This document shows positions 19,554-61,617 of a stretch of DNA of 64,000 bases, piece by piece. Each line of letters begins with the position of its first letter. The first letter of the stretch is position 1. Under the pieces are notes generated by a model. The model was given only the letters and a program-made list of their open reading frames with translations, made no database searches and was not told the origin of the DNA. This stretch comes from Minisyncoccia bacterium (GTDB taxonomy: Bacteria; Patescibacteriota; Minisyncoccia; Phycocordibacterales; UBA918). Made by a program: the position numbers and the translations under genes. The stretch is from positions 13,079 through 77,078 of the forward strand of contig JBGSPE010000007.1 in NCBI GenBank assembly GCA_041738755.1. The letters run 5' to 3'.

Positions 19554-19590
19554 TTTTTTTCTGGTTCTAAGGTAGAGTAGTGCAACACGT

Positions 19591-21378: not shown

Positions 21379-21390
21379 GTACCAAAATAA

Positions 21391-21426: not shown

Positions 21427-21442
21427 TAGTAACCATACTCTT

Positions 21443-21565
21443 TATAGGGGCACTCCAGAGCCTCCAGAATAGGCAAATACCATACTGATAACAATTAAGA
21501 TAGCCAAGACTGCCCAGACCCATTTAATAGCTTTTTTGGTTCGTTGATCAAATAAGAAACTCATG
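21443..21565 (-). CDS. possible 40-aa single-TM micro-protein
   Basis: Minus-strand ORF MSFLFDQRTKKAIKWVWAVLAILIVISMVFAYSGGSGVPL between lepA and ftsB-like, ends at the terminator; below the 60-aa ORF-track cutoff. Confidence 0.3.
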
Positions 21566-21618
21566 ACTGCTATTCTACCGTATAGGGAAGAATAGTAAAA
21601 TAGGGGTATAATTACAGC

Positions 21619-21990: not shown

Positions 21991-22033
21991 TCAAAAAGTG
22001 TTATACTATCTTGGTTAATATTAAAGTCAACGT

Positions 22034-22270
22034 ATGGATACAGTAGTTACAATTTATAGTACCCCAGTGTGTCATTTTTGCCATGCTGCAAAGGAATTTT
22101 TTAAGGAAAATAATGTTGCGTACACAGAGTATGATGTTGCGTCTGATGCAGCAAAACGAACTGAGATGATTGATATGACAGGGCAAATGGGCGTACCTGT
22201 AATTCAAATCGGTGATGATGTGATTATTGGTTTTGATGAGCCAAAGATTAAAGAACTTCTCAAGCTGTAA
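22034..22270 (+). CDS. glutaredoxin-like / NrdH-type redoxin
   Basis: 78 aa, CHFC active site near the N-terminus, GVPVIQIGDDVIIGFD thioredoxin-fold motif. Confidence 0.8.
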   Translation: MDTVVTIYSTPVCHFCHAAKEFFKENNVAYTEYDVASDAAKRTEMIDMTGQMGVPVIQIGDDVIIGFDEPKIKELLKL

Positions 22271-22289
22271 GGTAAAACCAGACAAACAA

Positions 22290-22313
22290 AAACGCCCTTC
22301 GGGGCGCTTTTGT
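22290..22313 (+). terminator. rho-independent terminator
   Basis: aaacgccc ttcg gggcgcttttgtt. Confidence 0.7.
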
Positions 22314-22409
22314 TATTGTGCCCTTGGCAGGAATCCCCTCCGGGCCTGGATAATTGTCATAAATATCAAATCACCCTTCGATTCCTGACAGAAGTAAAAC
22401 TATTTACTT

Positions 22410-22454
22410 CTGCCAGAGGCACATTTAAAAATCTTTTAAATGTGCCTCTGGCAG
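22410..22454. repeat. perfect 17-bp inverted repeat whose right arm is the 3' end of tRNA-Arg
   Basis: ctgccagaggcacattt (22410-22426), loop aaaaatctttt, aaatgtgcctctggcag (22438-22454); the right arm covers the tRNA acceptor 3' strand plus trailer. Confidence 0.9.
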
Positions 22455-22514
22455 GAATCGAACCCACATCTCCCCCTTAGGACGGGGTAGCTCTATCCAT
22501 TGAGCTACAAAGGC
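22443..22514 (-). tRNA. tRNA-Arg (anticodon CCT)
   Basis: Reverse complement folds: acceptor GCCTTTG/CAGAGGC, D-arm GCTC AATGGATA GAGC, anticodon loop GTCCTAA, T-arm GTGGG TTCGATT CCTGC, discriminator A; A27·G43 mismatch noted. Confidence 0.75.
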
Positions 22515-22579
22515 TTCTGTGGCCTCTAGGGTAGCATAAATCAAGCAAAGGTGGCAGATGGTTTGGTATACTACCCAAT

Positions 22580-22825
22580 ATGGATTCAAATCACCAAGAC
22601 CACGACACAATCGAAAAGTTGATGGTAGAGAACCAAAGGCTTCTGGCTGAGAATAATCTTATTCTTAAAAAACTCCAACGGGGCGCAACGTGGGGCTTCT
22701 GGTTTCGTATTGTATGGATAGCTGTACTCCTTGGGCTTCCATTTGTCACCTACTTCTACTTCGTGGCTCCGTACACTGATAATCTCGAATCAATTATCCG
22801 CTATTTGGCACCACTCGTTATCTAG
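22580..22825 (+). CDS. small membrane protein with an N-terminal coiled-coil segment (hypothetical)
   Basis: 81 aa; helical N-terminus, C-terminal TM helices. Confidence 0.5.
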   Translation: MDSNHQDHDTIEKLMVENQRLLAENNLILKKLQRGATWGFWFRIVWIAVLLGLPFVTYFYFVAPYTDNLESIIRYLAPLVI

Positions 22826-22893
22826 TTCCCCATGATTGAAATAATTGTGAAAACAGGTACAATAGCCGGCACTGATTCACATATTCAGTCCTT

Positions 22894-22966
22894 GCTTGGG
22901 TAGCTCAGTTGGTAGAGCACTCCCCTGAAGAGGGAGGGGTCAGCAGTTCGAGCCTGCTCCCAAGCA
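22894..22966 (+). tRNA. tRNA-Phe (anticodon GAA)
   Basis: Acceptor GCTTGGG/CCCAAGC, D-arm GCTC AGTTGGTA GAGC, anticodon stem CTCCC/GGGAG with loop CTGAAGA, T-arm AGCAG TTCGAGC CTGCT, discriminator A. Confidence 0.9.
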
Positions 22967-22974
22967 CAAAACAA

Positions 22975-23006
22975 AAAATTGCCACAATTCTGTGGCAATT
23001 TTTTGT
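22975..23006. terminator. bidirectional terminator (tRNA-Phe on + and hsp20 on -)
   Basis: aattgccaca attc tgtggcaatt flanked by A- and T-tracts. Confidence 0.75.
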
Positions 23007-23522
23007 TTACTTATGACCTGCGTTACTTCTGACCTTAAGTTGTGTTGTGCGGTGTTTGTCGAGCTTGGGAAGTTTGATTTCAAGCATGCCGTGTTTTTCT
23101 TGTGCCTCGGCTTCGTCAATCGCAACTTCTTCTGGTAAGACGAGTGTTCTTGAGAAACCACCCCAGAATAATTCTCGATGGAAGTATCCATCGTCATGGA
23201 CTTCTTGAAATTCTTCTCGCACACCACGGATGGTGACCATGTCGCGGGTGATAGAGATTTCAAGGTCAGTTGGACTTACCCCAGCGACAAGGGCTCGAAT
23301 CACAATACTCTCATCAGTTTGGTACATATCGACAGGTAGTTCACCGTCTTGCGTACTGCCCGTTGATTCTTGGTCATCCCAAGCATCATCTTCTTGATAA
23401 CTGTCTTCAACAGCAAGGTTATCTTCTTCACCAAATTCATGATTTTCATCAAGGATTCGGTCGTAGTCGCGATCTTGTTGATTGCCACCAGTGAGTCGGT
23501 CTAGAAATGAGGGTTTTTTCAT
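23007..23522 (-). CDS. Hsp20/alpha-crystallin small heat-shock protein with a long acidic N-terminal extension
   Basis: C-terminal alpha-crystallin domain (…PVDMYQTDESIVIRALVAGVSP…GYFHRELFWGGFSRTLVLPEEV…LEIKLPK); first ~60 residues D/E-rich. Confidence 0.85.
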   Translation of the reverse strand: MKKPSFLDRLTGGNQQDRDYDRILDENHEFGEEDNLAVEDSYQEDDAWDDQESTGSTQDGELPVDMYQTDESIVIRALVAGVSPTDLEISITRDMVTIRGVREEFQEVHDDGYFHRELFWGGFSRTLVLPEEVAIDEAEAQEKHGMLEIKLPKLDKHRTTQLKVRSNAGHK

Positions 23523-30602: not shown

Positions 30603-32375
30603 ATGATAAGAACATCTCATAAAACTATTCCCAATACCCCGTTACGTTTTTTATGGTATTTGGGCTCTAAGTATAAACTTTTAGGCACCTCAGTATTCTT
30701 GCTGGTTTTATTTGCAGAAACACTCAATGTCTTAATTTTTTATGTTTCATCGCAGCTCATTGATGTTTTTACTGCTGCACCAACCCTGATTGAACAAAAA
30801 GAGACTCTTCTATTTTGGGGAGGATTATTTTTATTGGTTTCATTTAGTAATAGTATCTGTTACCGGTTAAGTGGCTTTGCGCTCATAATGTGGGTTATTA
30901 AGTTCCAGCGTGATGGATACGCTGAGCTATATGAATACCTTACGCGCCATAGTCATACGTATTTTAGTAATCGGTTTGCGGGTGCTCTTTCTAACAAAGT
31001 TTCAAATGCTGTTGACGGTAGTGGGGGGATGGCGTTTCAGATTGTCTGGACCTTCTTTTCTGAGTTTGTTGGGTTGCTCGTGACATTGATTTTGTTCTTT
31101 ACAATTGATTATCGAATTGGACTGGTGCTACTTTGCATGTTCTTTATTGTATTAGGGTTTAATATTTGGGCTGTACATTGTCGTCGGCCGTTTGTTATCG
31201 CGTACGCAACTGCTTCTTCAAAAGCTCGAGGTGAAGGAGTCGATACGATTACCAACATGAGTATTGTCAGGCAATTTTCGCAGCGAAATTTTGAATTACG
31301 TCGGCTCAACAGAGTCTTTGATGACCGAGCTGAAAAAGATATAAAGCAATCAATTTTTGGTGAGTGGATTATGCTGATTAATGCCTTTTTTGCTGTTTTT
31401 ATGACAACGACAGTTTTGGTCATGTTGTATGTCTTGCTTGATACGGGAGCGATTACAGCCGGGGTATTAGTATTAGTACTCGGTTTACTCGGTCGGGTAG
31501 GGTATATGTTTACTATTATTGGACAAGCCCTCAATCGATTTATTCGCGAGTACGGAAATGTTGAAGAGGGCCTTGAAGAAATTTTGCAGGAGATGGAGTT
31601 AACAGATCAGCCTGGAGCCATAGAACTTTTAGTCCCCCGTGGTGAGATTGTATGGAAGGATGTTGTCTTTGAATATGGAGTAAATAATATTTTTAAACAT
31701 TTTAATCTGATAATTTCACCTGGTCAGAGACTCGGTTTAGTAGGGCCATCAGGCGCCGGAAAGAGTACATTTGTCTCACTGCTCTTGCGGCAAAATGATA
31801 TAAGCGGTGGAAGTATTTTGATTGATAATCAAGCTATTGATACGGTAACACAGGATTCTTTGCGGAGGAATATCGCTATCGTTCCACAAGAGCCAGCCCT
31901 TTTCCATCGTAGTATTAGAGAAAATATTGCATATGGTAGACCAGATGCAACTGAAGCAGATATTGTTGAAGCCGCAAAACGCGCTCAGGCTCACGAGTTC
32001 ATCACTGCACTTGAGTTCGGATATGACACCATGGTGGGTGAACGAGGCATCAAGCTATCAGGTGGCCAAAAGCGGCGAGTAGCCATCGCTCGGGCCATAC
32101 TCAAGAATGCTCCGATCTTGGTGCTTGATGAAGCTACTTCCGCGCTTGATAGTGAAAGTGAAGTAGCGATTCAGGCAGCGCTTTCAGAGCTGATGACTGG
32201 TAAGACTGTAATTGCGATAGCGCACCGTCTCTCAACGTTGCGCGAGATGGATAGAATCTTGGTACTTGAACAAGGTCAGGTCGTAGAAGATGGTACGCAC
32301 GATGCTCTCAAATCAGCTGGAGGAGTATATCAACGTTTGTGGGAGCACCAGGCTGGAGGCTTTCTGACTGAATAA
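30603..32375 (+). CDS. ABC exporter, fused permease-ATPase (MsbA/MdlB-like)
   Basis: 6-TM N-domain; Walker A GPSGAGKST, signature LSGGQKRRVAIARAIL, Walker B ILVLDEATSALD. Confidence 0.85.
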   Translation: MIRTSHKTIPNTPLRFLWYLGSKYKLLGTSVFLLVLFAETLNVLIFYVSSQLIDVFTAAPTLIEQKETLLFWGGLFLLVSFSNSICYRLSGFALIMWVIKFQRDGYAELYEYLTRHSHTYFSNRFAGALSNKVSNAVDGSGGMAFQIVWTFFSEFVGLLVTLILFFTIDYRIGLVLLCMFFIVLGFNIWAVHCRRPFVIAYATASSKARGEGVDTITNMSIVRQFSQRNFELRRLNRVFDDRAEKDIKQSIFGEWIMLINAFFAVFMTTTVLVMLYVLLDTGAITAGVLVLVLGLLGRVGYMFTIIGQALNRFIREYGNVEEGLEEILQEMELTDQPGAIELLVPRGEIVWKDVVFEYGVNNIFKHFNLIISPGQRLGLVGPSGAGKSTFVSLLLRQNDISGGSILIDNQAIDTVTQDSLRRNIAIVPQEPALFHRSIRENIAYGRPDATEADIVEAAKRAQAHEFITALEFGYDTMVGERGIKLSGGQKRRVAIARAILKNAPILVLDEATSALDSESEVAIQAALSELMTGKTVIAIAHRLSTLREMDRILVLEQGQVVEDGTHDALKSAGGVYQRLWEHQAGGFLTE

Positions 32376-45041: not shown

Positions 45042-45662
45042 TTATTCTTGACTAGTAACTGCTTCGTCTTCAATGGCTCCGGGTAAAAACTCAATCATCG
45101 TCGGCGGGAAGAGTCTGAGCCACGCGCGGCCGACGATTCTATCCTCCTGGAGGACGCCCCAGCTGCGAGAGTCAGAGCTCTCGCCTCGATTGTCACCCAT
45201 GACAAAGTATTCACGTTCACCCAAGGTCTCCATGAGTGGAGCAGCCGGTGGCATCAGTTCAATATATGGTTCATCTAGGATATAACCTTCAGGATCAGCT
45301 TCATTACTAATGCGAACTTGACCGTTTTCGATAGTAATAGTATCTCCCGGGAGACCAATCACCCGCTTAATAAAGAATTTTGAGGGGTCACGCGGGTACC
45401 GGAAGATAATCACTTCGCCTCGAACCGGGTCATTAAAGTAATGAGTCACTTGGTCAACGATAAGGTACTCGCCAGTATGAAAGGTTTGTTCCATGGATGC
45501 GCCAGAGACGATAAATGGTTGAGCAATAAACATTCGGATTGGGATAACAATCAAAATAGCAATAAGGGAGAAGCGGACGATTTCTAAGAAGGGATGAGGT
45601 TCTCGATGGTTGAGTGATTCTTCATCAATTGAATCAGTTTTTTTGTTAGAGAATAGCTGCAT
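45042..45662 (-). CDS. lepB: signal peptidase I
   Basis: SGASMEQT (catalytic Ser), KRVIGLPGD (catalytic Lys), GDNRGESSDSR boxes. Confidence 0.9.
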   Translation of the reverse strand: MQLFSNKKTDSIDEESLNHREPHPFLEIVRFSLIAILIVIPIRMFIAQPFIVSGASMEQTFHTGEYLIVDQVTHYFNDPVRGEVIIFRYPRDPSKFFIKRVIGLPGDTITIENGQVRISNEADPEGYILDEPYIELMPPAAPLMETLGEREYFVMGDNRGESSDSRSWGVLQEDRIVGRAWLRLFPPTMIEFLPGAIEDEAVTSQE

Positions 45663-52953: not shown

Positions 52954-52960
52954 TGACGGT

Positions 52961-53004
52961 AAAAGCCGCCAGAAACCCTTAAGGGTTTCTGGCGGCTTTT
53001 GTTT
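52961..53004 (+). terminator. rho-independent terminator
   Basis: aaaagccgccagaaaccctt aa gggtttctggcggcttttgtttt. Confidence 0.8.
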
Positions 53005-53032: not shown

Positions 53033-53602
53033 TTGCCCTATATAATGTATGTAATGAATCCAATTCTTGGCGGGCAGTTTGTAAAACCTGAAATCGTCGT
53101 AACTCATTTTCATTTGCGTGAGGGTGATACTGTGGCTGATTACGGTACGGGGAGTGGTTTCTTTTTGAGATCACTTTCCACTTCGGTCGGAGCAACCGGC
53201 CGCGTGTATGCCTGCGAGATACAAAAAAGCCTGGTTGAAAAAATTGGTGAACAAAGTCGTCAATCAGGTCTGACTAATATTCAAGTCCTTTGGTGTGATC
53301 TTGAAGAGTTGGGTGGGTTAAAAATTGCTGACAATGCGCTCGATGCCGGAGTCCTTGTAAATACGCTTTTTATTTTGGAAGATAGAGAGACTGCGGTGAA
53401 AGAAATAGCGCGAACACTGAGGTCGGGCGCCAAGTTATTTGTTATTGATTGGACTGAATCATTTGCTGGTATGGGGCCGATGCCTGATCATGTAATTACC
53501 GAAGCTGAAGCTACGGTCCTGTTCGAAGCCAATGGGTTTATTTTTGAACGTAATTATCCAGCTGGAGAACACCACTACGGCTTAGCTTTTAGAAAGTTAT
53601 GA
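53033..53602 (+). CDS. class I SAM-dependent methyltransferase
   Basis: Motif I VADYGTGSGFF, motif post-I acidic residue, ~185 aa. Confidence 0.7.
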   Translation: MPYIMYVMNPILGGQFVKPEIVVTHFHLREGDTVADYGTGSGFFLRSLSTSVGATGRVYACEIQKSLVEKIGEQSRQSGLTNIQVLWCDLEELGGLKIADNALDAGVLVNTLFILEDRETAVKEIARTLRSGAKLFVIDWTESFAGMGPMPDHVITEAEATVLFEANGFIFERNYPAGEHHYGLAFRKL

Positions 53603-54903
53603 ATTTAAGACCATTTGAACTAGGCCTCATCATCGTATTCATCGTTTTGATTGCCGGATCATTATTGTTCCTTTCGGTGTATAGTCCAGGTAATGATAAC
53701 GATGGTCTGCCACAGGTTGGTACAGTAACTATCTGGGGTACCTTGCCACAGTCAGGCATGGAGCAAGTACTACGGGGGATGGCTGAAGTTAACGAATCTT
53801 ATAACGGCGTCTCGTATAGAGAAATTAGTCCAGCAGATTTTTCAAATGAACTGGTTAACGCTTTGGCAGATGGGACTGGTCCTGATTTACTCCTGGTTCC
53901 CCATGAGCGCCTCGTTGAGTTTCGTCGACGCTTACAGGTTATTTCATATGATTCTTTTCCCTTGCGAGATTTCCGAAGTCTCTACCTTGATGGGGCTGCA
54001 GTTTTTGCCTTAAACGATGGCGTCTATGCCTACCCGATTGCTGTTGATCCGCTCATGATGTACTGGAATCGCAATATGCTAGCCAATAATAATCTCCTGA
54101 CACCCCCAGCTACCTGGGAAGCGCTTGTTAATACCTACGTACCAACACTTATTCAGCGACAGGCTGATAGATCTATTACGCAGAGCGTGGTAGCAATGGG
54201 GGAGTATAGTAATATTCGAAATGCGTTCGGGATTATCTCAGCTCTCTTGATTCAGGGTGGCTCTGCAATGGTAACAGAACAAAATACTGAGTATGTTATT
54301 CAGCTCGATAGTTCACTCCAAGGCGGTGACCGACCATTTCAAAGCGTGGCTGACTTCTACACACGCTTCAGTCGCCCTAGTAACGCACTGTACTCATGGA
54401 ATCGATCATTTCCACCAGACCGAGACCGCTTTGTGAGTGAAAACTTAGCATTATATTTTGGGTATGGAAGTGAAGGAAAGGAGCTTGAGCGACTCAATCC
54501 CAATCTCAATTTTGATATTGCTGAATTACCGCAAGGCGGAGCCGCAACCGTCAGGCGGACCTATGGTCAGTTCTATGGATTGTCAGTCCTTCGTTCGTCA
54601 GATAATTTTCCTGGAGCCGCTATTGTCCTCCGTGATTTAGCGAGCGCTGATATCAGTAAGCAAATAGCTGACACGTACAATTTGGTACCTGCTTTGCGTA
54701 GTTTGGTCGCAGCCGGTAGTAACGATACCTATGGGCGACTTAATTACACTTCGGCAGCCATTACCTACGGTTGGTTAAATCCAGATTTAGCCGGGACCAA
54801 TACTATTTTTGAAACAATGGTTCGTGACATTAATGAAAATCGAAATGATGTCGGTGGTGCAGTGACTGACGCCGAAGATCGTTTAGAGTTAGAGTATAAT
54901 TAA
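53599..54903 (+). CDS. membrane-anchored ABC-type substrate-binding protein, MalE/SBP_bac_1-like, orphan (no permease or ATPase adjacent)
   Basis: N-terminal TM anchor; GTVTIWGTL…ALADGTGPDLLLVPHERL…GVYAYPIAVDPLMMYWNRNML…TPPATWEAL matches the family-1 SBP pattern. Confidence 0.6.
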   Translation: MNLRPFELGLIIVFIVLIAGSLLFLSVYSPGNDNDGLPQVGTVTIWGTLPQSGMEQVLRGMAEVNESYNGVSYREISPADFSNELVNALADGTGPDLLLVPHERLVEFRRRLQVISYDSFPLRDFRSLYLDGAAVFALNDGVYAYPIAVDPLMMYWNRNMLANNNLLTPPATWEALVNTYVPTLIQRQADRSITQSVVAMGEYSNIRNAFGIISALLIQGGSAMVTEQNTEYVIQLDSSLQGGDRPFQSVADFYTRFSRPSNALYSWNRSFPPDRDRFVSENLALYFGYGSEGKELERLNPNLNFDIAELPQGGAATVRRTYGQFYGLSVLRSSDNFPGAAIVLRDLASADISKQIADTYNLVPALRSLVAAGSNDTYGRLNYTSAAITYGWLNPDLAGTNTIFETMVRDINENRNDVGGAVTDAEDRLELEYN

Positions 54904-54906
54904 TTT

Positions 54907-55341
54907 ATGAAATTTACACATTTATTCTTGGTAGTGGTTATGGCCTTCGGGGTGGCGTTACCAAGTATTTCATTGTCTCAAGGTACAACCCCAAACGGTC
55001 CACCAGCAAACCCACCAACTACACCAAACGGTCCGGCTGCAACACCTCCAGTCACACCAAATGGTGGAGGTGGCGGTTCTCGAGCCTTGGACAATCCTCT
55101 CCAGGTTGATTCACTTGAAGACTTGCTGGTAGCTATCCTTCGAATTGTGATTGTTCTCGCTACGCCGATTGTTGTACTCTTTATTATTTTGGCTGGCTTC
55201 AAGTATGTGACTGCAAGAGGTGATGCTGCAAAGACAAAGGAAGCCACCCTTGCCCTTACTTATGCAGTCATCGGTGGAATACTCATTATAGGCGCGGTCG
55301 CTATTGCGGAGATTATCGGTAATATAGTAGAAGCTTTTTAA
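54907..55341 (+). CDS. VirB2/TrbC-like pilin-family small membrane protein, paralog 1 (signal peptide, TPNGP repeats)
   Basis: Signal peptide, Pro-rich TPNGPxxxPP repeats, then two hydrophobic helices separated by a Lys-rich loop (…FKYVTARGDAAKTKEATLALTYAVIGG…). Confidence 0.5.
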   Translation: MKFTHLFLVVVMAFGVALPSISLSQGTTPNGPPANPPTTPNGPAATPPVTPNGGGGGSRALDNPLQVDSLEDLLVAILRIVIVLATPIVVLFIILAGFKYVTARGDAAKTKEATLALTYAVIGGILIIGAVAIAEIIGNIVEAF

Positions 55342-55347
55342 TCCGGT

Positions 55348-55599
55348 ATGGAAACTCCAAAAGATTTTGCAGGGTTGGTGAATTTTTTTCTCAGTTTTAT
55401 TGGTATTCTTATCCCAGCACTCTTCGCAGTTTTATTTGTCTATATTATGTACAAAATCTTTGATGCCTGGATTTTGCACGCTGATGATGAGACAAAACGA
55501 AAAGAAGGAAAGTCACTGATTATTGTCGCAGTCCTGGTATTTGTGCTTATGATCAGCACGTGGGGAATTGTGGGTCTTATCCAGCGCTCCTTATTTTAG
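55348..55599 (+). CDS. VirB2/TrbC-like small membrane protein, paralog 2 (no signal peptide)
   Basis: Two TM helices with a DETKRKEGKSL loop; alignable to paralogs 3-5. Confidence 0.45.
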   Translation: METPKDFAGLVNFFLSFIGILIPALFAVLFVYIMYKIFDAWILHADDETKRKEGKSLIIVAVLVFVLMISTWGIVGLIQRSLF

Positions 55600-55652
55600 G
55601 AGTAGCCATATGCAATAAAATATGGTATACTAAAAATTATTACTTAGTGTCT

Positions 55653-56042
55653 ATGTATTCTATGACTCGTATTGTATCCATCTTTTCAGTTCTTGGTATT
55701 GCCTTGTTACCAGGGGTAACTTCAGCGCAGTTGGCAACGTCTGGCAACGCTGGGCCCTTCCAAGACCTCTTGGTAAATATTCTTGAGTTTTCAAACACTA
55801 CCCTCATTCCATTTATTATTGGTATTGGGTTCCTCTTCTTTGTGTGGGGAATGTTTCAATACTTCATCGCTGGTGGCGCCAATGAAGAGTCTAAGCAAAA
55901 GGGGAAGAGTCTGATGATTAATGCTACGATTGGTTTTGTCGTGATTATTATTTTCTTTGGAATCATCAATCTCCTCACCAATAGTACTGGGCTTGAAGGA
56001 GAAGCAATTCAAAATGTCCCACAAATCACCATTCCAGAATAA
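55653..56042 (+). CDS. VirB2/TrbC-like small membrane protein, paralog 3
   Basis: Signal peptide; NILEFSNTTLIPFIIGIGFLFFVWGMFQYFIAGGANEESKQKGKSLMINATIGFVVIIIFFGIINLL; ~65% identical to paralog 4. Confidence 0.5.
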   Translation: MYSMTRIVSIFSVLGIALLPGVTSAQLATSGNAGPFQDLLVNILEFSNTTLIPFIIGIGFLFFVWGMFQYFIAGGANEESKQKGKSLMINATIGFVVIIIFFGIINLLTNSTGLEGEAIQNVPQITIPE

Positions 56043-56164
56043 TTGGTAAGATTTTGTTATACACATGATGGTAAAACCCGGCGTCTCAAGCCGGGTTTTG
56101 TACCATATAATTAAGTAAACGTAGCCGCGTTGTTAATAGCCACATTATTTGCATAAACTAACCT

Positions 56165-56551
56165 ATGAAAAAAATCTTTTACTCAATCAGCAGCCTTAGT
56201 CTTTTGGCACTTCCGCTTGTTTCATCTGCTCAACAAGGTCAGGGTTTCCAGCCAGACGGCGGAGAGCTTGGTGATTTCTTTACAAACATTCTCCTTTTCT
56301 CAAATAACGTCCTTATTCCATTTATTCTTGGAATCGGATTCTTGGTATTTGTGTACGGAGTATTTCTTTACTTTATTGCCGGCGGAGCCAATGAAGACAA
56401 ACAAAAGCAAGGAAAGAGCCTTCTTATCTACGCTACGCTTGGTTTCGTAATTGTGATTATTTTCTGGGGAGTAGTGAATCTTCTTGCTCAAGGTACAGGG
56501 TTTGATAACGACAATCTTGAAAATATTCCAGACCTACCGACCACTCGATAA
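56165..56551 (+). CDS. VirB2/TrbC-like small membrane protein, paralog 4
   Basis: Signal peptide; NILLFSNNVLIPFILGIGFLVFVYGVFLYFIAGGANEDKQKQGKSLLIYATLGFVIVIIFWGVVNLL. Confidence 0.5.
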   Translation: MKKIFYSISSLSLLALPLVSSAQQGQGFQPDGGELGDFFTNILLFSNNVLIPFILGIGFLVFVYGVFLYFIAGGANEDKQKQGKSLLIYATLGFVIVIIFWGVVNLLAQGTGFDNDNLENIPDLPTTR

Positions 56552-56566
56552 GTTTCCTTCGGAAAC

Positions 56567-56590
56567 AAAAAAGCCCTTCGGGGCTTTTTT
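56567..56590 (+). terminator. rho-independent terminator
   Basis: aaaagcccttcggggctttttt. Confidence 0.75.
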
Positions 56591-56640
56591 GTTTCCCCAT
56601 GAAAAAGCTTTTTGACAGTGTGACGTGCTAAAATCCTAGT

Positions 56641-56976
56641 ATGTCTCCCGAAGATAGAGCAGTTGGTGAAGCCGTTAGTTTTGTTGCTACGGTCAATGAT
56701 GTGATTATTTTTCCCCTCATCGCACTTCTAACAGGAATTGCCTTCTTGGTATTCCTTTATGGTTGCGCTGAATTTATCTTTAACGCTAGTAACGAACAGG
56801 GTCGTAAGCAGGGGACTCAACATGTCATGTACGGTATTATTGGTTTGGTTGTAATGTTGAGTGCTTGGTCAATTCTCCAGATTGCTACTGCAACCTTCGG
56901 GCTTAATGATGAACTGGATTGTGCGAATAACCCTTCAGCTAGTGGGTGTGCGGAGAAGTTTGAGCTCCAACAATAA
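56641..56976 (+). CDS. VirB2/TrbC-like small membrane protein, paralog 5 (no signal peptide, C-terminal Cys pair)
   Basis: IIFPLIALLTGIAFLVFLYGCAEFIFNASNEQGRKQGTQHVMYGIIGLVVMLSAWSIL core alignable with paralogs 1-4. Confidence 0.45.
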   Translation: MSPEDRAVGEAVSFVATVNDVIIFPLIALLTGIAFLVFLYGCAEFIFNASNEQGRKQGTQHVMYGIIGLVVMLSAWSILQIATATFGLNDELDCANNPSASGCAEKFELQQ

Positions 56977-56977
56977 A

Positions 56978-57016
56978 AAATAGAGCCCTTGGTACAAGTA
57001 CCAAGGGCTCTGAGTT
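56978..57016. terminator. bidirectional terminator
   Basis: agagcccttggtac aa gtaccaagggctct. Confidence 0.8.
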
Positions 57017-57036: not shown

Positions 57037-57771
57037 TTATTTGCAGTCTTCTTCCTTGAAGACGACACCTTCAGCAGTGGCTTCTGCCTTGGTGAAGGGG
57101 TCCACCATGACCTCGAGAGGTTCGGTGAGATCGGATTTCACCAGAAGCGTCCGCTTGCGACCGCTGTACGGCCCTTGGACGAGATAGTCCATCCACGAGC
57201 CACGGTTGATTTCATCGACCGTGGCAGTTGGAATGTAGTTACGGAAGCCACAGGTGTTGGCGGGGACGGTGAAGGTCAGGCTTTTGGTGCCTGGCTCAAA
57301 CACCAGGAGCATCCCTTCAGCCGGAACGTCCGGCATCTTGCTCCCATCCGTGGCTTCAGCTTCAGACTTTTCAGTCTCCGCTTCGGGCTTCGCTGCTTCG
57401 GTCACCTTCGCTTCGGCCCAGTTGGTGGTAGCAATGGTCCACTGACCGAAGCCAGAGAAGAGCATCGTCACTGCAAAGGTGATGCCTCCGCCTAAGCGAA
57501 GTACGGTGCCCCAAGGCTGGACGGCAGGAAACTTCAGTTCGTGAAGCTTGTTGCCGCCCCAGAGCATCACAGCTGCGATGATGAGGTTCCAGGCAAAGCC
57601 AAGCTTTGCCCAGGCCAGCAGAACGCCGATCCCAGCAAAGGCGATGCCGATGCCGATGTTGATAGCCAGCTTGGTGGTTGAGCTCATGGTGTTTCCGCGA
57701 TTGGTGGTCGCTTGGGTCGCTTGAGCTTGTGTATTGCCAGCGATGCCAGCAACAGGAGGATTGGTTGTCAT
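57037..57771 (-). CDS. membrane protein with a C-terminal soluble beta-rich domain (possibly NfeD-like), translationally coupled to the SPFH gene
   Basis: 2-3 N-terminal TM helices, Ala/Glu-rich linker, C-terminal ~100-aa domain; ATGA overlap with the upstream SPFH gene; GC-rich. Confidence 0.5.
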   Translation of the reverse strand: MTTNPPVAGIAGNTQAQATQATTNRGNTMSSTTKLAINIGIGIAFAGIGVLLAWAKLGFAWNLIIAAVMLWGGNKLHELKFPAVQPWGTVLRLGGGITFAVTMLFSGFGQWTIATTNWAEAKVTEAAKPEAETEKSEAEATDGSKMPDVPAEGMLLVFEPGTKSLTFTVPANTCGFRNYIPTATVDEINRGSWMDYLVQGPYSGRKRTLLVKSDLTEPLEVMVDPFTKAEATAEGVVFKEEDCK

Positions 57772-58859
57772 GAAGTTTTCCCTTTCGGTTTGGGTTTACC
57801 TTTTGCCTGGCCGGTGACGCGAGATGCGAGTGCCCGGCCTTCAGGTGTGCGGAGAATTGCAGCGATTGCCTTGGCTGCTTCAGGGTCGAGACCATGAAGT
57901 GACAAGTCAATTTCTGTGCGGTTGATTTGCATCCCCTCAAGGTTACCCGAGATAGAGAGGAATCGGTCACGTGCGAGATTGACGTCAGCTTGGGTCATGC
58001 GACCTGCAGTAATCTCTGCCTTGAGTTCATCCTTGGTTAGGCCGAGGATGATTAGAGTACCGCTCGCGATAGCTTCAGCTTCGCCGATGGCTGACATCGT
58101 CTTCTGCATATCTTCGCTCGGGAGGAGTTCTCTCACTGTCACATCAGAGATTCTAATTCCACACCTTTTTTCGATAGGATGTTTCTTCTTTCTGAATTTC
58201 TTGTCAAGGATATTATTGAGATCCTTGTAGAGATTTAGTGCCTCCCGGACAGTCTTATCTTTAAACTGTTCAGCGATTTCACCGATGATGAGGTCGGTGA
58301 TATCGTTGGCTACGCCAGAGACACTGCCGAGAAAGGTGACCGGATTATTTTGGTCCGGACGCAGGCGGAAGGACCCTTTTCCTTTGATGGTTCCATCCTT
58401 ACATTGGATGGTAAAATCAAAGTCATTGGATGCTTCTTCCAGGGAAATATTGTTTTCGCCGAGGCGACGTTCCCATGGAAAGCTGACATGCGTCCCCGGC
58501 CCGTAGAAGACGTTGGGATTTTGAACCCCTCGCAGAGTGGCAAGGGTATCTTGGGTGACGAACATCCCAATGGTGGGATTCCTGATGATAAACCATTTTC
58601 CAATGGAGTACACCAGAATGCCAGCTGACAACCCAAGGCCGATGAACCAGAAAATCATTCCTGCCAGTGACGTTTGAACGTCAAGGGTTTCTGCACCGGG
58701 TAAAGGTTCGGTGGGGAAAAATTGTTCCCCAAACCACTGGACTATGGTCGGAACCAACCACAACACCAAGATGGTGTATACGGCCAGAACTAACCAACGG
58801 TCAATCTGGCTGCGGTTGCTGATGTCGGCATCGGACGGCTGAGTGAATTGATCGGCCAT
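57768..58859 (-). CDS. SPFH/band-7 (stomatin/flotillin/HflK-like) membrane protein
   Basis: N-terminal TM helices, SPFH core (…FDFTIQCKDGTIKGKGSFRLRP…), coiled-coil and Lys-rich tail. Confidence 0.7.
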   Translation of the reverse strand: MADQFTQPSDADISNRSQIDRWLVLAVYTILVLWLVPTIVQWFGEQFFPTEPLPGAETLDVQTSLAGMIFWFIGLGLSAGILVYSIGKWFIIRNPTIGMFVTQDTLATLRGVQNPNVFYGPGTHVSFPWERRLGENNISLEEASNDFDFTIQCKDGTIKGKGSFRLRPDQNNPVTFLGSVSGVANDITDLIIGEIAEQFKDKTVREALNLYKDLNNILDKKFRKKKHPIEKRCGIRISDVTVRELLPSEDMQKTMSAIGEAEAIASGTLIILGLTKDELKAEITAGRMTQADVNLARDRFLSISGNLEGMQINRTEIDLSLHGLDPEAAKAIAAILRTPEGRALASRVTGQAKGKPKPKGKTS

Positions 58860-60272: not shown

Positions 60273-60334
60273 TCTCACGCACAGACAAAAATCGCCCTCA
60301 TAAATGAGGGCTGATTTTTGTATCTGTGCGTGAG
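60273..60334. repeat. long imperfect inverted repeat enclosing a terminator hairpin and overlapping the tRNA-Leu 3' end
   Basis: ctcacgcacagacaaaaatc [gccctca taaa tgagggc] gatttttgtatctgtgcgtgag; the right arm includes the tRNA discriminator plus acceptor 3' strand. Confidence 0.8.
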
Positions 60335-60407
60335 AGAGGACTCGAACCTCCACAGGTCACCCTACTAGTTCCTAAGACTAGCGCGTCTACCATTCCGCCA
60401 CTCACGC
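60327..60407 (-). tRNA. tRNA-Leu (anticodon TAG), long variable arm
   Basis: Reverse complement: acceptor GCGTGAG/CTCACGC, anticodon stem CTAGT/ACTAG with loop CTTAGGA, variable arm ~TAGGGTGACCTGTGG, T-loop TTCGAGT, discriminator A. Confidence 0.8.
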
Positions 60408-60593
60408 AATGTGGGCGAGTATAGCAGATTTCTTTGTTGGTTGCTACCAACTTGGAAAAGTCTTCCAAACATTCTAAGTCCGGACAAAAATAAAAACCCT
60501 TTCGGGTCTTTATCGTCGTCACAAGTCCTCAGAAAGTATATTCCTTACAGTCATTACTTTCTTGGCTCGCGACCCCGCCTCACTCGTAGCAAA

Positions 60594-60644
60594 GCTACAT
60601 CATGCCGGCTCGGACAGCCGTCGCAAGCAAAGCAGTTTGCTTGC
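60594..60644. repeat. repeated intergenic hairpin element, copy 2 (palindrome gcaagcaaa gcag tttgcttgc at 60623-60644)
   Basis: Same core and loop as copy 1 with two compensatory base-pair swaps in the stem; contains cggacagccg, complementary to the tRNA-Lys 3' end/trailer on the other strand. Confidence 0.7.
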
Positions 60645-60649
60645 TAATT

Positions 60650-60685
60650 AAAACAACCTCAGACTAAAAAGTCTGAGGTTGTTTT
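60650..60685 (-). terminator. hairpin terminator downstream of tRNA-Lys
   Basis: aaaacaacctcagac taaaaa gtctgaggttgtttt. Confidence 0.7.
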
Positions 60686-60696
60686 AATTCCGGCTG

Positions 60697-60769
60697 TCCG
60701 CCCTCCAGGACTCGAACCTGGGACCATCTCGTTAAGAGCGAGCTGCTCTACCAACTGAGCTAAGGGCGG
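60697..60769 (-). tRNA. tRNA-Lys (anticodon CTT)
   Basis: Reverse complement: acceptor CCGCCCT/AGGGCGG, D-arm GCTC AGTTGGTA GAGC, anticodon stem GCTCG/CGAGA with loop CTCTTAA, T-arm CCAGG TTCGAGT CCTGG, discriminator A. Confidence 0.85.
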
Positions 60770-60824
60770 ATTGGTTGGTCAAGCGAGTTTACAACAAAGT
60801 AGACCTCGACACAAGTCACTTTTG

Positions 60825-60897
60825 AGTCCTGGGTGGGAGTCGAACCCACGTATGGCGGTTTTGCAAACCGCAGCGTTAACCACTTCGCCACCAGGAC
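60825..60897 (-). tRNA. tRNA-Cys (anticodon GCA)
   Basis: Reverse complement: acceptor GTCCTGG/CCAGGAC, anticodon stem GCGGT/ACCGC with loop TTGCAAA, T-arm GTGGG TTCGACT CCCAC, discriminator U (as in bacterial tRNA-Cys). Confidence 0.85.
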
Positions 60898-60988
60898 AGT
60901 ACGGCCCACTATATCACCATTTACCTAAAACAAAAATAACAATTTGGGGGAATACTTGTTATTATGTGAGTATAATCACGTTTACCAT

Positions 60989-61477
60989 ATGGCAACACGT
61001 CGTTGGACAATTAAAGACTTAAAGACAGCAGTGAAATCATCTCACAGCACCCGTGAAGTTATTTTTAAATTAGGTTTAATCCCAGCGGGTGGGAATTATG
61101 AGCAAATAAAAACCGCAATATTTGAGAATAAAATTTCAACTACACATTTTACCGGTAAGGGATGGCGAATAAACCGGACGTTCGCACCAAACCCGCGCAT
61201 CCCACTTTCAAATATATTGGTAGGTCACTCAAAATTTCAAAGCTTCAAACTCAAAAAGCGATTATTTACAGAGGGTTTAAAGTTACAAAAGTGCGAGCTG
61301 TGTGGCTGGGCAGAACAATCACAAGATGGTAGAATCCCTCTCGAACTCGATCATATCAATGGTGACCGTTATGACAATAGAATAGAAAATCTAAGGATTC
61401 TCTGTCCAAATTGTCACAGCTTACAACCTACGCATCGAGGGATGAATCAAAAACGCCGGGTGAAGCAGAAGCCCTAG
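60989..61477 (+). CDS. free-standing HNH endonuclease (homing-endonuclease-like) between tRNA genes
   Basis: C-terminal HNH motif [25 protein letters not shown] with CELCGW…CPNCH zinc ligands; basic N-terminal putative DNA-binding domain; TATAAT at 60971-60976 just upstream of the ATG at 60989. Confidence 0.8.
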
Positions 61478-61483: not shown

Positions 61484-61566
61484 GCCAGGGTGGTGGAATG
61501 GTAGACACGCGACACTTAAAATGTCGTGGGAGAAATCCCGTATGGGTTCGAGTCCCATCCCCGGCA
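61484..61566 (+). tRNA. tRNA-Leu (anticodon TAA), long variable arm
   Basis: Acceptor GCCAGGG/CCCCGGC (A4·C69 mismatch), anticodon stem CGACA/TGTCG with loop CTTAAAA, variable-arm hairpin GGGAGAAATCCC, T-arm ATGGG TTCGAGT CCCAT, discriminator A. Confidence 0.75.
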
Positions 61567-61617
61567 CAATAATTGTCAAAAACCCCGGCCAGTATGGCCG
61601 AGGTTTTTGTTTGTCAC

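What the first reader, a model, noticed from the sequence alone, without database searches (positions are those of the whole stretch)
53599..56976. Tandem array of five paralogous VirB2/TrbC-pilin-like two-helix proteins next to an orphan MalE-like substrate-binding protein
Five consecutive small genes (54907, 55348, 55653, 56165, 56641) encode proteins with the same architecture. Each has a hydrophobic helix, a short Lys/Gln/Glu-rich loop (…GGANE(D/E)KQKQGKSL…) and a second hydrophobic helix. Three of them carry cleavable signal peptides and paralog 1 adds Pro-rich TPNGP repeats. This layout (long leader, two TM helices, tiny polar loop) is that of type IV secretion / conjugative pilins (VirB2/TrbC). 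Paralogs 3 and 4 are ~65% identical, consistent with recent duplication, and the others have diverged. The array is preceded by a membrane-anchored family-1 solute-binding protein with no cognate permease or ATPase, and by a SAM methyltransferase. No VirB4/VirD4/VirB6 genes are in the window. This could be a major surface-appendage or adhesin locus, or a T4SS-related system, possibly involved in host or episymbiont contact.
Basis: partly seen in the sequence, partly recalled or inferred. Interest (0 to 1): 0.75.

Follow-up and report, generated by a model that had tools for sequence, protein, structure and literature searches.

The report
Conserved pilin-like gene array in Patescibacteria
Five neighbouring small genes encode relatives of the pilus subunits of type IV secretion systems, a known and still unexplained feature of ultrasmall Patescibacteria; what seems to be undescribed is that throughout one whole class they sit in a fixed operon with a sugar-binding-type membrane protein.

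Summary
Five + strand genes (144, 83, 129, 128, 111 aa) follow a 434-aa membrane-anchored protein with a MalE-like fold and a SAM methyltransferase. The interpretation also holds. All five match Pfam PF18895 (T4SS_pilin), four of them above its cutoff. All 37 orthologues of paralog 1 also match TrbC/VirB2 (PF04956). No VirB4, VirD4 or VirB6 lies in the window.

The kind is already published: tandem VirB2-like pilin arrays in Patescibacteria (Wang 2023; Quinonero-Coronel 2025).

Three points go beyond what I found in print:
- The module MBL-fold gene, GyrA, methyltransferase (usually), binding protein, pilin array recurs in every informative related locus: 80 species-representative genomes plus three more distant Campbell-, Wolfe- and Parcubacteria loci.
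- The array consists of four ancient, positionally fixed subunit types. Orthologues are 52-59% identical, while types within a genome are 20-39% identical. Only type 3/4 varies in copy number. This argues against a recent-duplication or antigenic-variation array.
- The binding protein never has a permease or ATPase beside it in the six loci with gene annotation.

Most likely this is the pilin module of the chromosomal, non-conjugative Patescibacteria T4SS, encoded apart from virB4. Function is inferred, not shown. Interest is moderate.

The parts
52960..53001 (+). Hairpin with U-tract just after the gyrA stop. It is a likely gyrA terminator and marks the upstream boundary of the operon.
   Evidence: 19-bp perfect stem, -34.3 kcal/mol, z = -8.4 against shuffles, followed by UUUUGUUUU (sequence).
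53033..53602 (+). Class I SAM-dependent methyltransferase of unknown substrate. The longest ORF starts at 53033; the independent gene call of 182 aa starts at 53054. It overlaps the next gene by 4 nt.
   Evidence: Methyltransf_11/25/31 at E 5e-13 to 2e-10. The 182-aa call is in L088. It is present upstream of the binding-protein gene in most related loci and absent from a few distant ones.
53599..54903 (+). Membrane-anchored protein with the fold of a family-1 (MalE-like) oligosaccharide-binding protein. It has no cognate permease or ATPase nearby, and its N-terminus is nearly invariant (MKLRPFEL in most relatives, MNLRPFEL here).
   Evidence: AF2 model pLDDT 69.9, pTM 0.69, N-terminal helix 5-27. 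Foldseek PDB hits 5ysf, 1eu8, 3uor and MalE at E about 1e-15, TM 0.6-0.7, 13-18% identity. The ortholog profile weakly matches sugar-binding proteins. 788 representative clusters at E<=1e-30. N-terminal motif.
54907..55341 (+). Pilin-like paralog 1 (type 1): Sec-type leader, variable Pro-rich extension, then the two-helix pilin domain. This is the most TrbC/VirB2-like of the five.
   Evidence: PF18895 28.4 bits, PF04956 21.3 bits. 37/37 orthologues match both families. The N-terminal extension is hypervariable in orthologues.
55348..55599 (+). Pilin-like paralog 2 (type 2): a minimal two-helix hairpin with no leader.
   Evidence: PF18895 24.8 bits, just under the cutoff. 32/36 orthologues match PF18895. 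Orthologues of about 85 aa sit at a fixed position.
55653..56042 (+). Pilin-like paralog 3 (type 3/4): leader plus hairpin.
   Evidence: PF18895 30.3 bits. The 129-aa gene call is in L088. It belongs to the only type whose copy number varies between genomes, 1-3 copies.
56165..56551 (+). Pilin-like paralog 4 (type 3/4): leader plus hairpin.
   Evidence: PF18895 30.2 bits. 622 homologues were found; 119 of the 120 listed carry a precomputed PF18895 hit. AF2 gives a leader helix 4-24 and a hairpin 33-72 / 77-110. 37/37 of this type match NF045849.
56641..56976 (+). Pilin-like paralog 5 (type 5): hairpin without a leader, and a C-terminal tail with two conserved cysteines (C94, C103).
   Evidence: PF18895 32.3 bits. 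36/36 orthologues match PF18895. C103 is invariant and C94 nearly invariant in 36 sequences.
56981..57012 (.). Palindromic hairpin between the array and the convergent genes. It marks the downstream boundary of the operon.
   Evidence: 14-bp stem, -23.8 kcal/mol, z = -6.7. The terminator scan lists it on the - strand with a T-run.
57037..58859 (-). Two convergent genes: a 244-aa membrane protein and a 363-aa SPFH/Band-7 membrane protein. They are positionally conserved neighbours, and whether they belong to the system is uncertain.
   Evidence: Band_7 31.8 bits. A pair of - strand ORFs of roughly 240-370 and 330-490 aa sits at this position even in distant loci, although sequence similarity is mostly lost.

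Best explanation
The five genes encode VirB2/TrbC-superfamily pilin-like subunits (Pfam PF18895). They belong to the chromosomal, non-conjugative type IV secretion system typical of Patescibacteria. The organism is a member of the class Paceibacteria (Parcubacteria). Here the pilin module is not next to virB4. It forms its own core-genome operon just downstream of gyrA: methyltransferase, membrane-anchored MalE-fold binding protein, then four ancient pilin types in fixed order (type 1, type 2, type 3/4 present twice here, type 5).

Inferred mechanism: the subunits insert into the cytoplasmic membrane as helical hairpins with the basic loop facing inward. Types 1 and 3/4 lose a Sec leader to signal peptidase I. 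VirB4-type machinery encoded elsewhere then extracts the subunits and assembles them into a heteromeric surface filament or conduit. Type 3/4 is the likely bulk subunit. Type 1 displays a hypervariable N-terminal extension on the surface. Type 5 carries a disulfide-looped tail. The co-transcribed binding protein stays anchored beside the assembly and binds an oligosaccharide-like ligand, either a host surface glycan or a scavenged nutrient.

Shown: homology, architecture, operon boundaries, class-wide synteny, and positional orthology of the types. Inferred: pilus formation, dependence on VirB4, and the roles of the binding protein and the methyltransferase.
For: - Family membership. All five match PF18895, the P1 type matches TrbC/VirB2 in 37/37 orthologues, and the P3/4 type matches the mycoplasma-ICE pilin-like family in 37/37.
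- Architecture: searches show leader, helix, short basic loop, helix.
- Operon unit: 3-6 nt gaps or overlaps join the methyltransferase, binding protein, P1 and P2 genes, with strong hairpins at both ends.
- Synteny: the binding-protein gene is followed by pilin-like ORFs (2-7 where downstream sequence is not cut short) and preceded by GyrA in all informative loci from 80 species-representative genomes, down to 31% identity. The same holds in Campbell-, Wolfe- and Parcubacteria loci.
- Ancient fixed types: collinear order P1-(P1')-P2-P3/4-P5, with ortholog bit scores about 100-170 against 25-55 for other types. Orthologues are 52-59% identical against 20-39% between types.
- Literature: VirB2-like pilins and 441 tandem arrays in Patescibacteria, with VirB4 usually near dnaA in Paceibacteria (PMC12102498). 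The pilin series is essential in S. epibionticum (PMC10633639). PF18895 pilins are among the most highly expressed genes of unknown function in Paceibacterales (PMC10936435).
- VirB4 in relatives: two genomes that carry this module (L036, L085) are listed as VirB4-positive in Table S1 of PMC12102498.
- Processing enzyme: a signal peptidase I gene lies at 45042-45662.
Against: - No VirB4, VirD4, VirB6, VirB3 or TrsD gene lies within about 55 kb upstream or about 15 kb downstream, or within +/-8-10 kb in any related locus.
- One genome carrying the module (Parcubacteria OLB19, L047) is listed as lacking VirB4.
- Ortholog profiles of types 1 and 3/4 do not hit any solved VirB2 or TraA sequence.
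- Fold searches with the P4 model return only generic helical hairpins.
- No pilus of this type has been seen in any Patescibacterium, and monoderm T4SSs normally lack pili (PMC12857230).
- P2 and P5 lack the long leader typical of VirB2.
- The function of the binding protein is pure inference.
Confidence: 0.55

Rival explanations
1. T4SS-independent membrane complex. The four 2-TM subunit types form a fixed hetero-oligomeric channel in the cytoplasmic membrane. This channel works directly with the anchored binding protein as a non-canonical solute capture or uptake device. The VirB2-like fold has been exapted, and no pilus and no VirB4 are involved.
For: The binding-protein gene and the pilin array are strictly coupled in every informative locus, and no ABC permease or ATPase lies beside the binding protein. 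The four types are ancient and kept in fixed order, as expected for a defined complex. The module is unlinked to virB4 everywhere examined. The OLB19 genome has the module but is listed as VirB4-negative. The binding-protein clade is well separated from ordinary solute-binding proteins, with only 2,371 hits at E<=1e-3 in 1.84 billion representatives.
Against: No precedent exists for a VirB2-like protein acting as a transporter subunit. Most Paceibacteria, including two genomes with this module, do have VirB4. The Sec leaders, the hypervariable exposed N-terminal extensions, the 697-aa ORF in L083 that carries a large N-terminal region ahead of a pilin domain and the high expression fit a surface structure better than a permease. 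OLB19 is a draft assembly.
Confidence: 0.2
2. T4SS channel components without an extended pilus. The proteins are VirB2- or PrgF-like small membrane subunits that line or stabilise the translocation channel through the membrane and cell wall, as assumed for small hydrophobic proteins of monoderm MPF-FATA systems.
For: Monoderm T4SSs lack pili (PMC12857230). All five paralogs, and 37/37 type-3/4 orthologues, match a pilin-like protein family of mycoplasma ICEs, which are monoderm MPF-FATA elements. In Table S3 of PMC12102498 some genomes show consecutive 'VirB2, PrgF, PrgF' hits far from virB4, which may be arrays of this type scored partly as PrgF. That link is unverified.
Against: Five to seven subunit genes, very high expression in relatives and surface-type variable extensions on type 1 are more than a channel lining would need. 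I could not test similarity to PrgF, because no PrgF profile is available in these tools.
Confidence: 0.15
3. Variation array. The paralogs are interchangeable, recently duplicated versions of one pilin that serve antigenic variation or adaptation to different host strains. This has been suggested for Patescibacteria arrays by analogy with Bartonella and Anaplasma VirB2 paralogs.
For: The suggestion is in PMC12102498. Low identity between paralogs, a copy number of type 3/4 that varies from 1 to 3 and the hypervariable type-1 extension fit it in part.
Against: Each type has clear orthologues at the same position in dozens of species, at 52-59% identity, about the same as the adjacent binding protein. 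Types differ in fixed features: leader or not, the Cys pair, length. That is the pattern of specialised subunits under purifying selection, not of a diversifying cassette array.
Confidence: 0.07
4. Unrelated small hydrophobic membrane proteins, for example holin-, YidH- or stress-type proteins, whose match to pilin models is due to composition.
For: Scores in the window are only 25-32 bits. JGI annotates homologues as 'YidH (DUF202)'. Fold searches are non-specific.
Against: The match is consistent and in register across 140+ orthologues, with E down to 3e-11 for PF18895, 8.6e-8 for TrbC and 8.5e-12 for NF045849. Competing families appear only sporadically.
Confidence: 0.03

Closest known systems
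VirB2-like pilin arrays of the Patescibacteria T4SS (S. epibionticum ML1 SEML1_0006-0019; TM7x 'Sec-secreted array'; 441 arrays reported by Quinonero-Coronel et al. 2025)
   Same: Both are tandem series of sequence-divergent, structurally similar PF18895/VirB2-like 2-TM proteins on the chromosome of a monoderm, reduced-genome epibiont lineage. Neither has an associated relaxase. Identity within an array is similar (published mean 25%, maximum 54%; here 20-50%).
   Different: In Saccharimonadia the array lies inside the virB4 cluster. Here it is a separate operon next to gyrA, coupled to a MalE-fold binding protein and usually a methyltransferase. It consists of four positionally orthologous types conserved across the class. 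[quoted passage not shown]
VirB2/TrbC conjugative pilins of diderm T4SSs (Agrobacterium VirB2, RP4 TrbC; Pfam PF04956)
   Same: Both have the leader, helix, short basic loop, helix layout. The type-1 orthologues match PF04956 in 37/37 cases.
   Different: The window's P1 scores below the PF04956 cutoff. Two of the five paralogs have no leader. There is no adjacent virB3-virB11 or virD4, the host is a monoderm, and there is no evidence of cyclisation, lipid binding or filament formation.
Mbov_0395 / MMCAP2_0565 pilin-like conjugal transfer protein of mycoplasma ICEs (NCBIfam NF045849)
   Same: This is the best-scoring NCBIfam family for all five paralogs (E 3e-7 to 6e-6) and for 37/37 type-3/4 orthologues. 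Both are small 2-TM proteins of a monoderm MPF-FATA-type system.
   Different: Scores are below the family cutoff of 40 bits. The mycoplasma protein is a single gene inside a mobile element, not a multi-type array in a housekeeping region.
Sulfolobus bindosome (sugar-binding proteins with pilin-type signal peptides plus the Bas assembly system with small pilin-like BasABC). This comparison is recalled from my own knowledge and is not tested against sequences here.
   Same: In both, a membrane-anchored sugar-binding-type protein is genetically tied to several small pilin-like proteins rather than to a permease. The N-terminal anchor of the binding protein is strongly conserved and carries an acidic or amide residue early in the helix.
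   Different: The pilin class differs: type IV pilin-like single helices in the bindosome against VirB2-like hairpins here. There is no class III signal-peptide motif (no Gly/Ala at -1) and no T4P-type ATPase or platform gene in the locus. This is an analogy only.
Canonical family-1 solute-binding proteins of ABC importers (MalE, TMBP, beta-1,2-glucooligosaccharide-binding protein)
   Same: Both have the two-lobe fold (Foldseek E about 1e-15, TM 0.6-0.7) and many invariant aromatic and polar residues.
   Different: Identity is 13-18%. The anchor is a transmembrane helix rather than a lipid or cleaved signal. No permease or ATPase genes lie adjacent in any of the six annotated loci, and the gene is always followed by pilin-like genes.

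Membership tests
Pfam PF18895 T4SS_pilin | Whole-protein HMM score at or above the gathering cutoff (26.6 bits) | tested here: met
   P1 28.4, P3 30.3, P4 30.2 and P5 32.3 bits pass. P2 at 24.8 bits is just under, but 32/36 of its orthologues match at E<=0.01. P1 type 37/37 and P5 type 36/36.
Pfam PF18895 T4SS_pilin | About 70-residue domain of two hydrophobic helices joined by a short polar loop | tested here: met
   Hydropathy segments and loops of 13-15 residues with 2-4 Lys/Arg. The AF2 hairpin spans 33-72 / 77-110 in P4.
VirB2/TrbC pilins (PF04956) | HMM score at or above the gathering cutoff (27.9 bits) | tested here: inconclusive
   The window's P1 scores 21.3 bits (E 3e-4), below the cutoff, and the other four paralogs do not match. 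All 37 P1-type orthologues match at E<=0.01, best 8.6e-8.
VirB2/TrbC pilins (PF04956) | Long N-terminal leader removed by signal peptidase I | tested here: inconclusive
   P1, P3 and P4 have Sec-type leaders with small residues at -3 and -1. P2 and P5 have none. No dedicated predictor was available and cleavage was not shown.
VirB2/TrbC pilins (PF04956) | Encoded within a T4SS gene cluster (virB3, virB4, virB6 and others) | tested here: not met
   No such genes lie in the 64-kb window, in about 8.5 kb beyond its end, or within +/-8-10 kb in related loci.
VirB2/TrbC pilins (PF04956) | Fold and sequence similarity to solved conjugative pilins (VirB2, TraA, TrwL) | tested here: inconclusive
VirB2/TrbC pilins (PF04956) | Polymerises into an extracellular pilus (with phospholipid) | not testable with these tools
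   This needs shearing and mass spectrometry, cryo-EM or cryo-ET.
Patescibacteria 'VirB2 arrays' (Quinonero-Coronel et al. 2025) | Two to eleven pilin genes in tandem or separated by one non-pilin gene | tested here: met
   Five consecutive genes with intergenic gaps of 6, 53, 122 and 89 nt. Definition.
Patescibacteria 'VirB2 arrays' (Quinonero-Coronel et al. 2025) | High divergence within the array (published mean 25%, maximum 54% identity) | tested here: met
   20-39% identity between types and 50% for P3 against P4.
Patescibacteria 'VirB2 arrays' (Quinonero-Coronel et al. 2025) | The genome also encodes a Patescibacteria-clade VirB4 | not testable with these tools
   Only one contig of this genome is available. 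Of three relatives carrying the module that appear in the held part of Table S1, two are VirB4-positive and one (OLB19) is negative.
Family-1 solute-binding protein of an ABC importer (MalE-like) | Two-lobe periplasmic-binding-protein fold | tested here: met
   Foldseek against PDB: 5ysf, 1eu8, 3uor and MalE at E about 1e-15, TM 0.55-0.70. The model has moderate confidence (pLDDT 69.9).
Family-1 solute-binding protein of an ABC importer (MalE-like) | Match to SBP_bac_1 / SBP_bac_8 models | tested here: inconclusive
   The window protein has no Pfam hit at E<=1 and only a weak MalE NCBIfam hit (31 bits against a cutoff of 291). Many homologues carry precomputed PF13416/PF01547 hits.
Family-1 solute-binding protein of an ABC importer (MalE-like) | Cognate permease and ATPase genes in the same operon | tested here: not met
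   None in the window locus or in the six annotated related loci. The only ABC gene in the window is an exporter-type fused ABC_membrane + ABC_tran gene at 30603-32375.
Archaeal bindosome / Bas system | Class III (prepilin-type) signal peptide on the binding protein, plus a T4P-like ATPase and platform protein | tested here: not met
   The N-terminus MKLRPFEL.. has no Gly/Ala-Phe/Leu cleavage motif, and there are no PilB/PilC-type genes in the locus. It is retained only as an analogy.

The most novel reading that the evidence does not exclude
The MalE-fold protein is a dedicated partner of the VirB2-like subunits. Together they would form a pilus- or channel-coupled ligand-capture device, a bacterial 'bindosome-like' structure built on T4SS pilins. 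Paceibacteria would use it to recognise host glycans or take up host-derived oligosaccharides or other building blocks, possibly without needing VirB4. This would give the enigmatic Patescibacteria T4SS pilins a concrete import-related function.
Probability: 0.2. Interest if true: 0.8.

Novelty: new variant of a known kind. Interest (0 to 1): 0.5.

Why it matters
The role of the Patescibacteria T4SS and its unusual pilin arrays is an open question. The system is essential in the one organism tested, and a 2024 perspective calls its role 'completely unknown' (PMC11665869). Reviews speculate about uptake from the host (PMC12857230).

In the largest class, Paceibacteria, this work shows two things. 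The pilin-like genes form a deeply conserved core operon of four specialised subunit types. That operon is always led by a sugar-binding-fold membrane protein with no transporter partner beside it.

This yields concrete experiments: identify the ligand of the binding protein, test whether it associates with the subunits, and determine whether the module tracks VirB4 across genomes. It also argues against antigenic variation as the reason for multiple paralogs in this lineage. If the linkage is only genomic habit, the locus is simply another member of a described family.

Tried and rejected
- **Pilin profiles against PDB sequences.** The ortholog profiles of types 1 and 3/4 gave only spurious hits (designed 'Pizza' proteins, FliL) and no VirB2 or TraA.
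- **Looking beyond the window for VirB4.** The IF-2 look-up failed. The other look-ups returned only short contigs from another assembly, showing housekeeping and glycosidase genes and no T4SS genes.
- **Supplementary tables of PMC12102498.** They were searched for the genomes carrying this module. The tables are truncated, so only three genomes could be matched, and the gene-level table does not reach them.
- **Supplementary expression tables of PMC10936435.** The cited pilin genes of the PMX.50 and PMX.108 MAGs could not be located.
- **DNA tandem repeat in the P1 Pro-rich region.** None was found.
- **Sigma-70 promoter scan of the locus.** It found no more sites than shuffled sequence, so it is uninformative.
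- **Mobile conjugative element.** Rejected: the context is housekeeping genes, and the synteny is class-wide and vertical.
- **Type IV pilus (T4P) locus.** Rejected: there is no prepilin motif, and the PilM_2 hit belongs to FtsA.

Full report
**1. What is in the sequence**

The region holds a compact + strand gene series:
- a SAM-dependent methyltransferase at 53033/53054-53602;
- a 434-aa protein at 53599-54903, which the methyltransferase gene overlaps by 4 nt;
- five small genes: P1 54907-55341 (144 aa), P2 55348-55599 (83 aa), P3 55653-56042 (129 aa), P4 56165-56551 (128 aa) and P5 56641-56976 (111 aa).

Gene calls made independently on another assembly of the same organism have exactly these lengths (L088).

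The series is bracketed by two strong hairpins. One lies right after the gyrA stop (52960-53001, -34.3 kcal/mol, z -8.4, followed by a U-tract). The other lies after P5 (56981-57012, -23.8 kcal/mol, z -6.7), facing two convergent genes. The block therefore looks like one transcription unit, separate from gyrA. The promoter scan was uninformative, and no Shine-Dalgarno motifs are visible upstream of the starts.

**2. The five proteins**

Each protein has two long hydrophobic segments joined by a 13-15-residue loop carrying 2-4 Lys/Arg. P1, P3 and P4 also have a Sec-type leader. P2 and P5 do not. An AlphaFold2 model of P4 gives a leader helix 4-24 and a helical hairpin 33-72 / 77-110.

The similarity among the five is real but old:
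- Local alignment z-scores are 4.6-50.
- Profile-profile comparisons align the types in register.
- Identities are 20-39%, except P3 against P4. That pair is 50% identical over the full length, 60% in the hairpin core and 62% at DNA level.

**3. Family assignment**

All five match Pfam PF18895 'T4SS_pilin'. Four pass the curated cutoff and P2 falls just under it. P1 also weakly matches PF04956 TrbC/VirB2. All five match the mycoplasma-ICE 'pilin-like conjugal transfer protein' NF045849 below its cutoff.

Ortholog sets remove the doubt that these are compositional matches:
- 37/37 P1-type proteins match both PF18895 (best 3e-11) and TrbC/VirB2 (best 8.6e-8).
- 32/36 P2-type and 36/36 P5-type proteins match PF18895.
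- 37/37 P3/4-type proteins match NF045849 (best 8.5e-12).
- Of 622 database homologues of P4, 119 of the 120 listed carry a precomputed PF18895 hit.

**4. The binding protein**

The 434-aa protein has a single N-terminal transmembrane helix and no lipobox. Its AF2 model has moderate confidence (pLDDT 69.9, pTM 0.69). The model matches oligosaccharide-binding proteins of ABC importers at E about 1e-15, TM 0.6-0.7 and 13-18% identity. These include the beta-1,2-glucooligosaccharide-binding protein, TMBP and MalE. The ortholog profile weakly matches the same proteins by sequence.

The protein belongs to a well-separated clade. Only 2,371 representatives out of 1.84 billion match at E<=1e-3, and 788 match at E<=1e-30, nearly all full-length. 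Orthologues are about 60% identical, with a dense set of invariant aromatic and polar residues and an almost invariant N-terminus MKLRPFEL. In distant members this relaxes to ..RPFQI.. or ..KFQL...

**5. Context and organism**

Homologues come from Kaiser-, Nomura-, Pace-, Campbell- and Wolfebacteria, that is GTDB class Paceibacteria. The window is housekeeping DNA: CTP synthase, MurJ, LepA, a class I tRNA synthetase, GlmS, FtsZ, FtsA, YbeY, signal peptidase I, Pth, S1, GyrA, IF-2 and nine tRNAs. There is no VirB4, VirD4 or VirB6, and none in about 8.5 kb beyond the window end.

**6. Comparative result**

I scanned one genome per species with the binding-protein alignment and obtained 80 loci at 31-61% identity. 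An iterated HMM built from the five paralogs, together with phmmer markers, gave a uniform picture. In every locus with enough sequence, the order is MBL-fold gene, small ORF, GyrA, methyltransferase (usually), binding protein, pilin-like ORFs on the same strand (2-7 where downstream sequence is not cut short), two convergent genes and a UPF0176 rhodanese.

Three further loci from a more distant clade show the same module, with precomputed PF18895 annotations. They come from Campbellbacteria, Wolfebacteria and a 'Parcubacteria group' MAG, whose binding proteins are 72%, 47% and 43% identical to a query that is itself 29% identical to the window protein. None of the six loci with gene annotation has an ABC permease or ATPase near the binding protein.

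**7. The array is four ancient types, not a recent expansion**

I assigned every pilin ORF to its best window paralog. This gives a collinear pattern: P1, then in some genomes a short P1-like gene, then P2, then one to three P3/4 genes, then P5. The ortholog score is typically 100-170 bits, against 25-55 bits for the next type.

Orthologues are 52-59% identical to the window proteins. That is about the same as the neighbouring binding protein, and far above the 20-39% between types.

The types carry fixed distinguishing features:
- Type 1: a leader, a hypervariable Pro/Thr/Gly/Asn- or Cys-rich extension, and the most VirB2-like hairpin. One distant locus (L083) has a 697-aa ORF at the head of its array, with about 600 residues ahead of a C-terminal pilin domain.
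- Type 2: a bare hairpin of about 85 aa.
- Type 3/4: a leader, a highly conserved hairpin, and variable copy number.
- Type 5: no leader, and a C-terminal tail with two conserved cysteines.

This is the signature of specialised subunits of one assembly. It does not fit a diversifying cassette array.

**8. What is already known**

Tandem VirB2-like pilin arrays are a described feature of the Patescibacteria T4SS.
- In Southlakia epibionticum a series of predicted pilins inside the T4SS cluster is essential (PMC10633639).
- A survey of 3,035 genomes found VirB2-like proteins, using PF04956 and PF18895 among other profiles, in 1,948 VirB4-positive assemblies. They were near virB4 in 1,135 of these.
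[quoted passage not shown] It reported VirB4 near dnaA in Paceibacteria and almost no relaxases (PMC12102498).
- A 2025 review highlights these systems as the only monoderm T4SSs with potential pili, and speculates about uptake from the host (PMC12857230).
- PF18895 pilins are among the most highly expressed genes of unknown function in Paceibacterales MAGs (PMC10936435).

I found no mention of a solute-binding protein linked to the pilins in the main text or held supplements of the survey, or in full-text searches.

**9. Is secretion machinery present elsewhere?**

This could not be tested for this genome. Of three module-bearing relatives found in the held part of the survey's Table S1, two Kaiserbacteria (L036, L085) are VirB4-positive. 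Parcubacteria OLB19 (L047) is VirB4-negative. Most Nomura- and Kaiserbacteria listed there are positive.

**10. Interpretation**

The best-supported reading is that this is the pilin module of the chromosomal, non-conjugative Patescibacteria T4SS. In Paceibacteria it has become a separate core operon led by a MalE-fold membrane protein.

The following steps are inferred from VirB2 biology and are not shown here: membrane insertion as hairpins, leader removal by signal peptidase I, extraction and polymerisation by VirB4-type machinery, and surface display of the type-1 extension and the type-5 loop.

The invariant coupling to a binding protein without a transporter is the most interesting point. 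It allows a more novel reading, in which the binding protein and the 2-TM subunits form a ligand-capture or uptake device, possibly independent of VirB4. I give that about 0.2.

The main alternatives are:
- channel-lining (PrgF-like) subunits without a pilus;
- a variation array, largely contradicted by the positional orthology;
- unrelated small membrane proteins, contradicted by the consistent family matches.

**11. Verdict**

The kind of feature is already known. The Paceibacteria-wide operon architecture and its subunit composition appear to be new detail. Interest is moderate at 0.5, and the locus is best rated a new variant of a known kind.

Noticed in passing
window 57037-58859 (- strand): Two convergent genes follow the array: a 244-aa membrane protein with a low-complexity N-terminus and a 363-aa protein with two TM helices, an SPFH/Band-7 domain and a Lys-rich tail. 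A pair of - strand ORFs of similar sizes occupies this position even in distant loci, although sequence similarity is mostly lost. They may or may not belong to the system.
   Followed up: partly
window 56641-56976 (P5), residues C94 and C103: Type-5 pilin-like proteins carry two conserved cysteines in the C-terminal tail (motif LDCA..P.A.GC). These would lie outside the cell and could form a disulfide loop, loosely reminiscent of the D-region of type IV pilins.
   Followed up: partly
L083:9265-11358 (also L008, L018, L059, L063): The N-terminal extension of type-1 pilin-like proteins is hypervariable: Pro/Thr/Gly/Asn-rich in most, Cys-rich in L008 and L018. In L083 the 697-aa ORF at the head of the array carries about 600 residues with short repeats ahead of a C-terminal pilin domain, which suggests surface display of variable modules.
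   Followed up: partly
window 53599-53640; alignment A2: The cytoplasmic stub and the start of the anchor helix of the binding protein (MKLRPFEL) are nearly invariant across relatives that are about 60% identical overall. A Glu or Gln is kept at the start of the helix even in homologues at 31% identity. No explanation was found. It could be an interaction site with the 2-TM subunits.
   Followed up: partly
L047 (Parcubacteria bacterium OLB19, GCA_001567365.1): This genome carries the full module but is listed as lacking VirB4 in Table S1 of PMC12102498. It is either an assembly gap or a hint that the module can persist without the T4SS ATPase.
   Followed up: no
L068 and L069, between GyrA and the methyltransferase: An extra pilin-like ORF (135 and 121 aa) sits upstream of the methyltransferase in these two loci. 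In the most distant group (L073, L081-L084) an additional pilin-like gene lies between the binding-protein gene and the type-1 gene.
   Followed up: no
L013 and L072 (contig CAXRCZ010000007.1, 126,716 bp): The same locus appears twice on one contig, at mirror-image coordinates (5997-23292 reversed and 103425-120720; the coordinate sums equal contig length + 1). The contig is therefore a self-reverse-complementary palindrome, most likely an assembly artefact.
   Followed up: no
database annotations of P4 homologues; record titles: JGI names many of these pilin-like proteins 'uncharacterized membrane protein YidH (DUF202 family)' and one 'cytochrome oxidase subunit 2'. Many MAGs carrying the Paceibacteria-type module are titled 'uncultured Candidatus Saccharibacteria'. 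Both look like annotation or labelling errors.
   Followed up: no
window 60944-61477, with tRNA genes at 60326-60897 and 61484-61567: An HNH endonuclease gene is embedded in a cluster of four tRNA genes between the rhodanese and RbfA/IF-2 genes. Relatives have an HNH gene or unrelated small ORFs at this spot, so it is a variable islet in an otherwise syntenic region.
   Followed up: no
PMC12102498 Table S3, e.g. GCA_000990275.1 genes 786-788: Some genomes in the published survey show consecutive hits 'VirB2 (T_virB2), PrgF, PrgF' far from virB4. Arrays of the type described here may have been scored partly as PrgF homologues and therefore not counted as VirB2 arrays. This is unverified.
   Followed up: no
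window 53570-56645 (gene starts): None of the seven genes of the operon has a recognisable Shine-Dalgarno sequence in the 30 nt upstream. The methyltransferase, binding-protein, P1 and P2 genes are separated by -4 to +6 nt, which suggests translational coupling.
   Followed up: no
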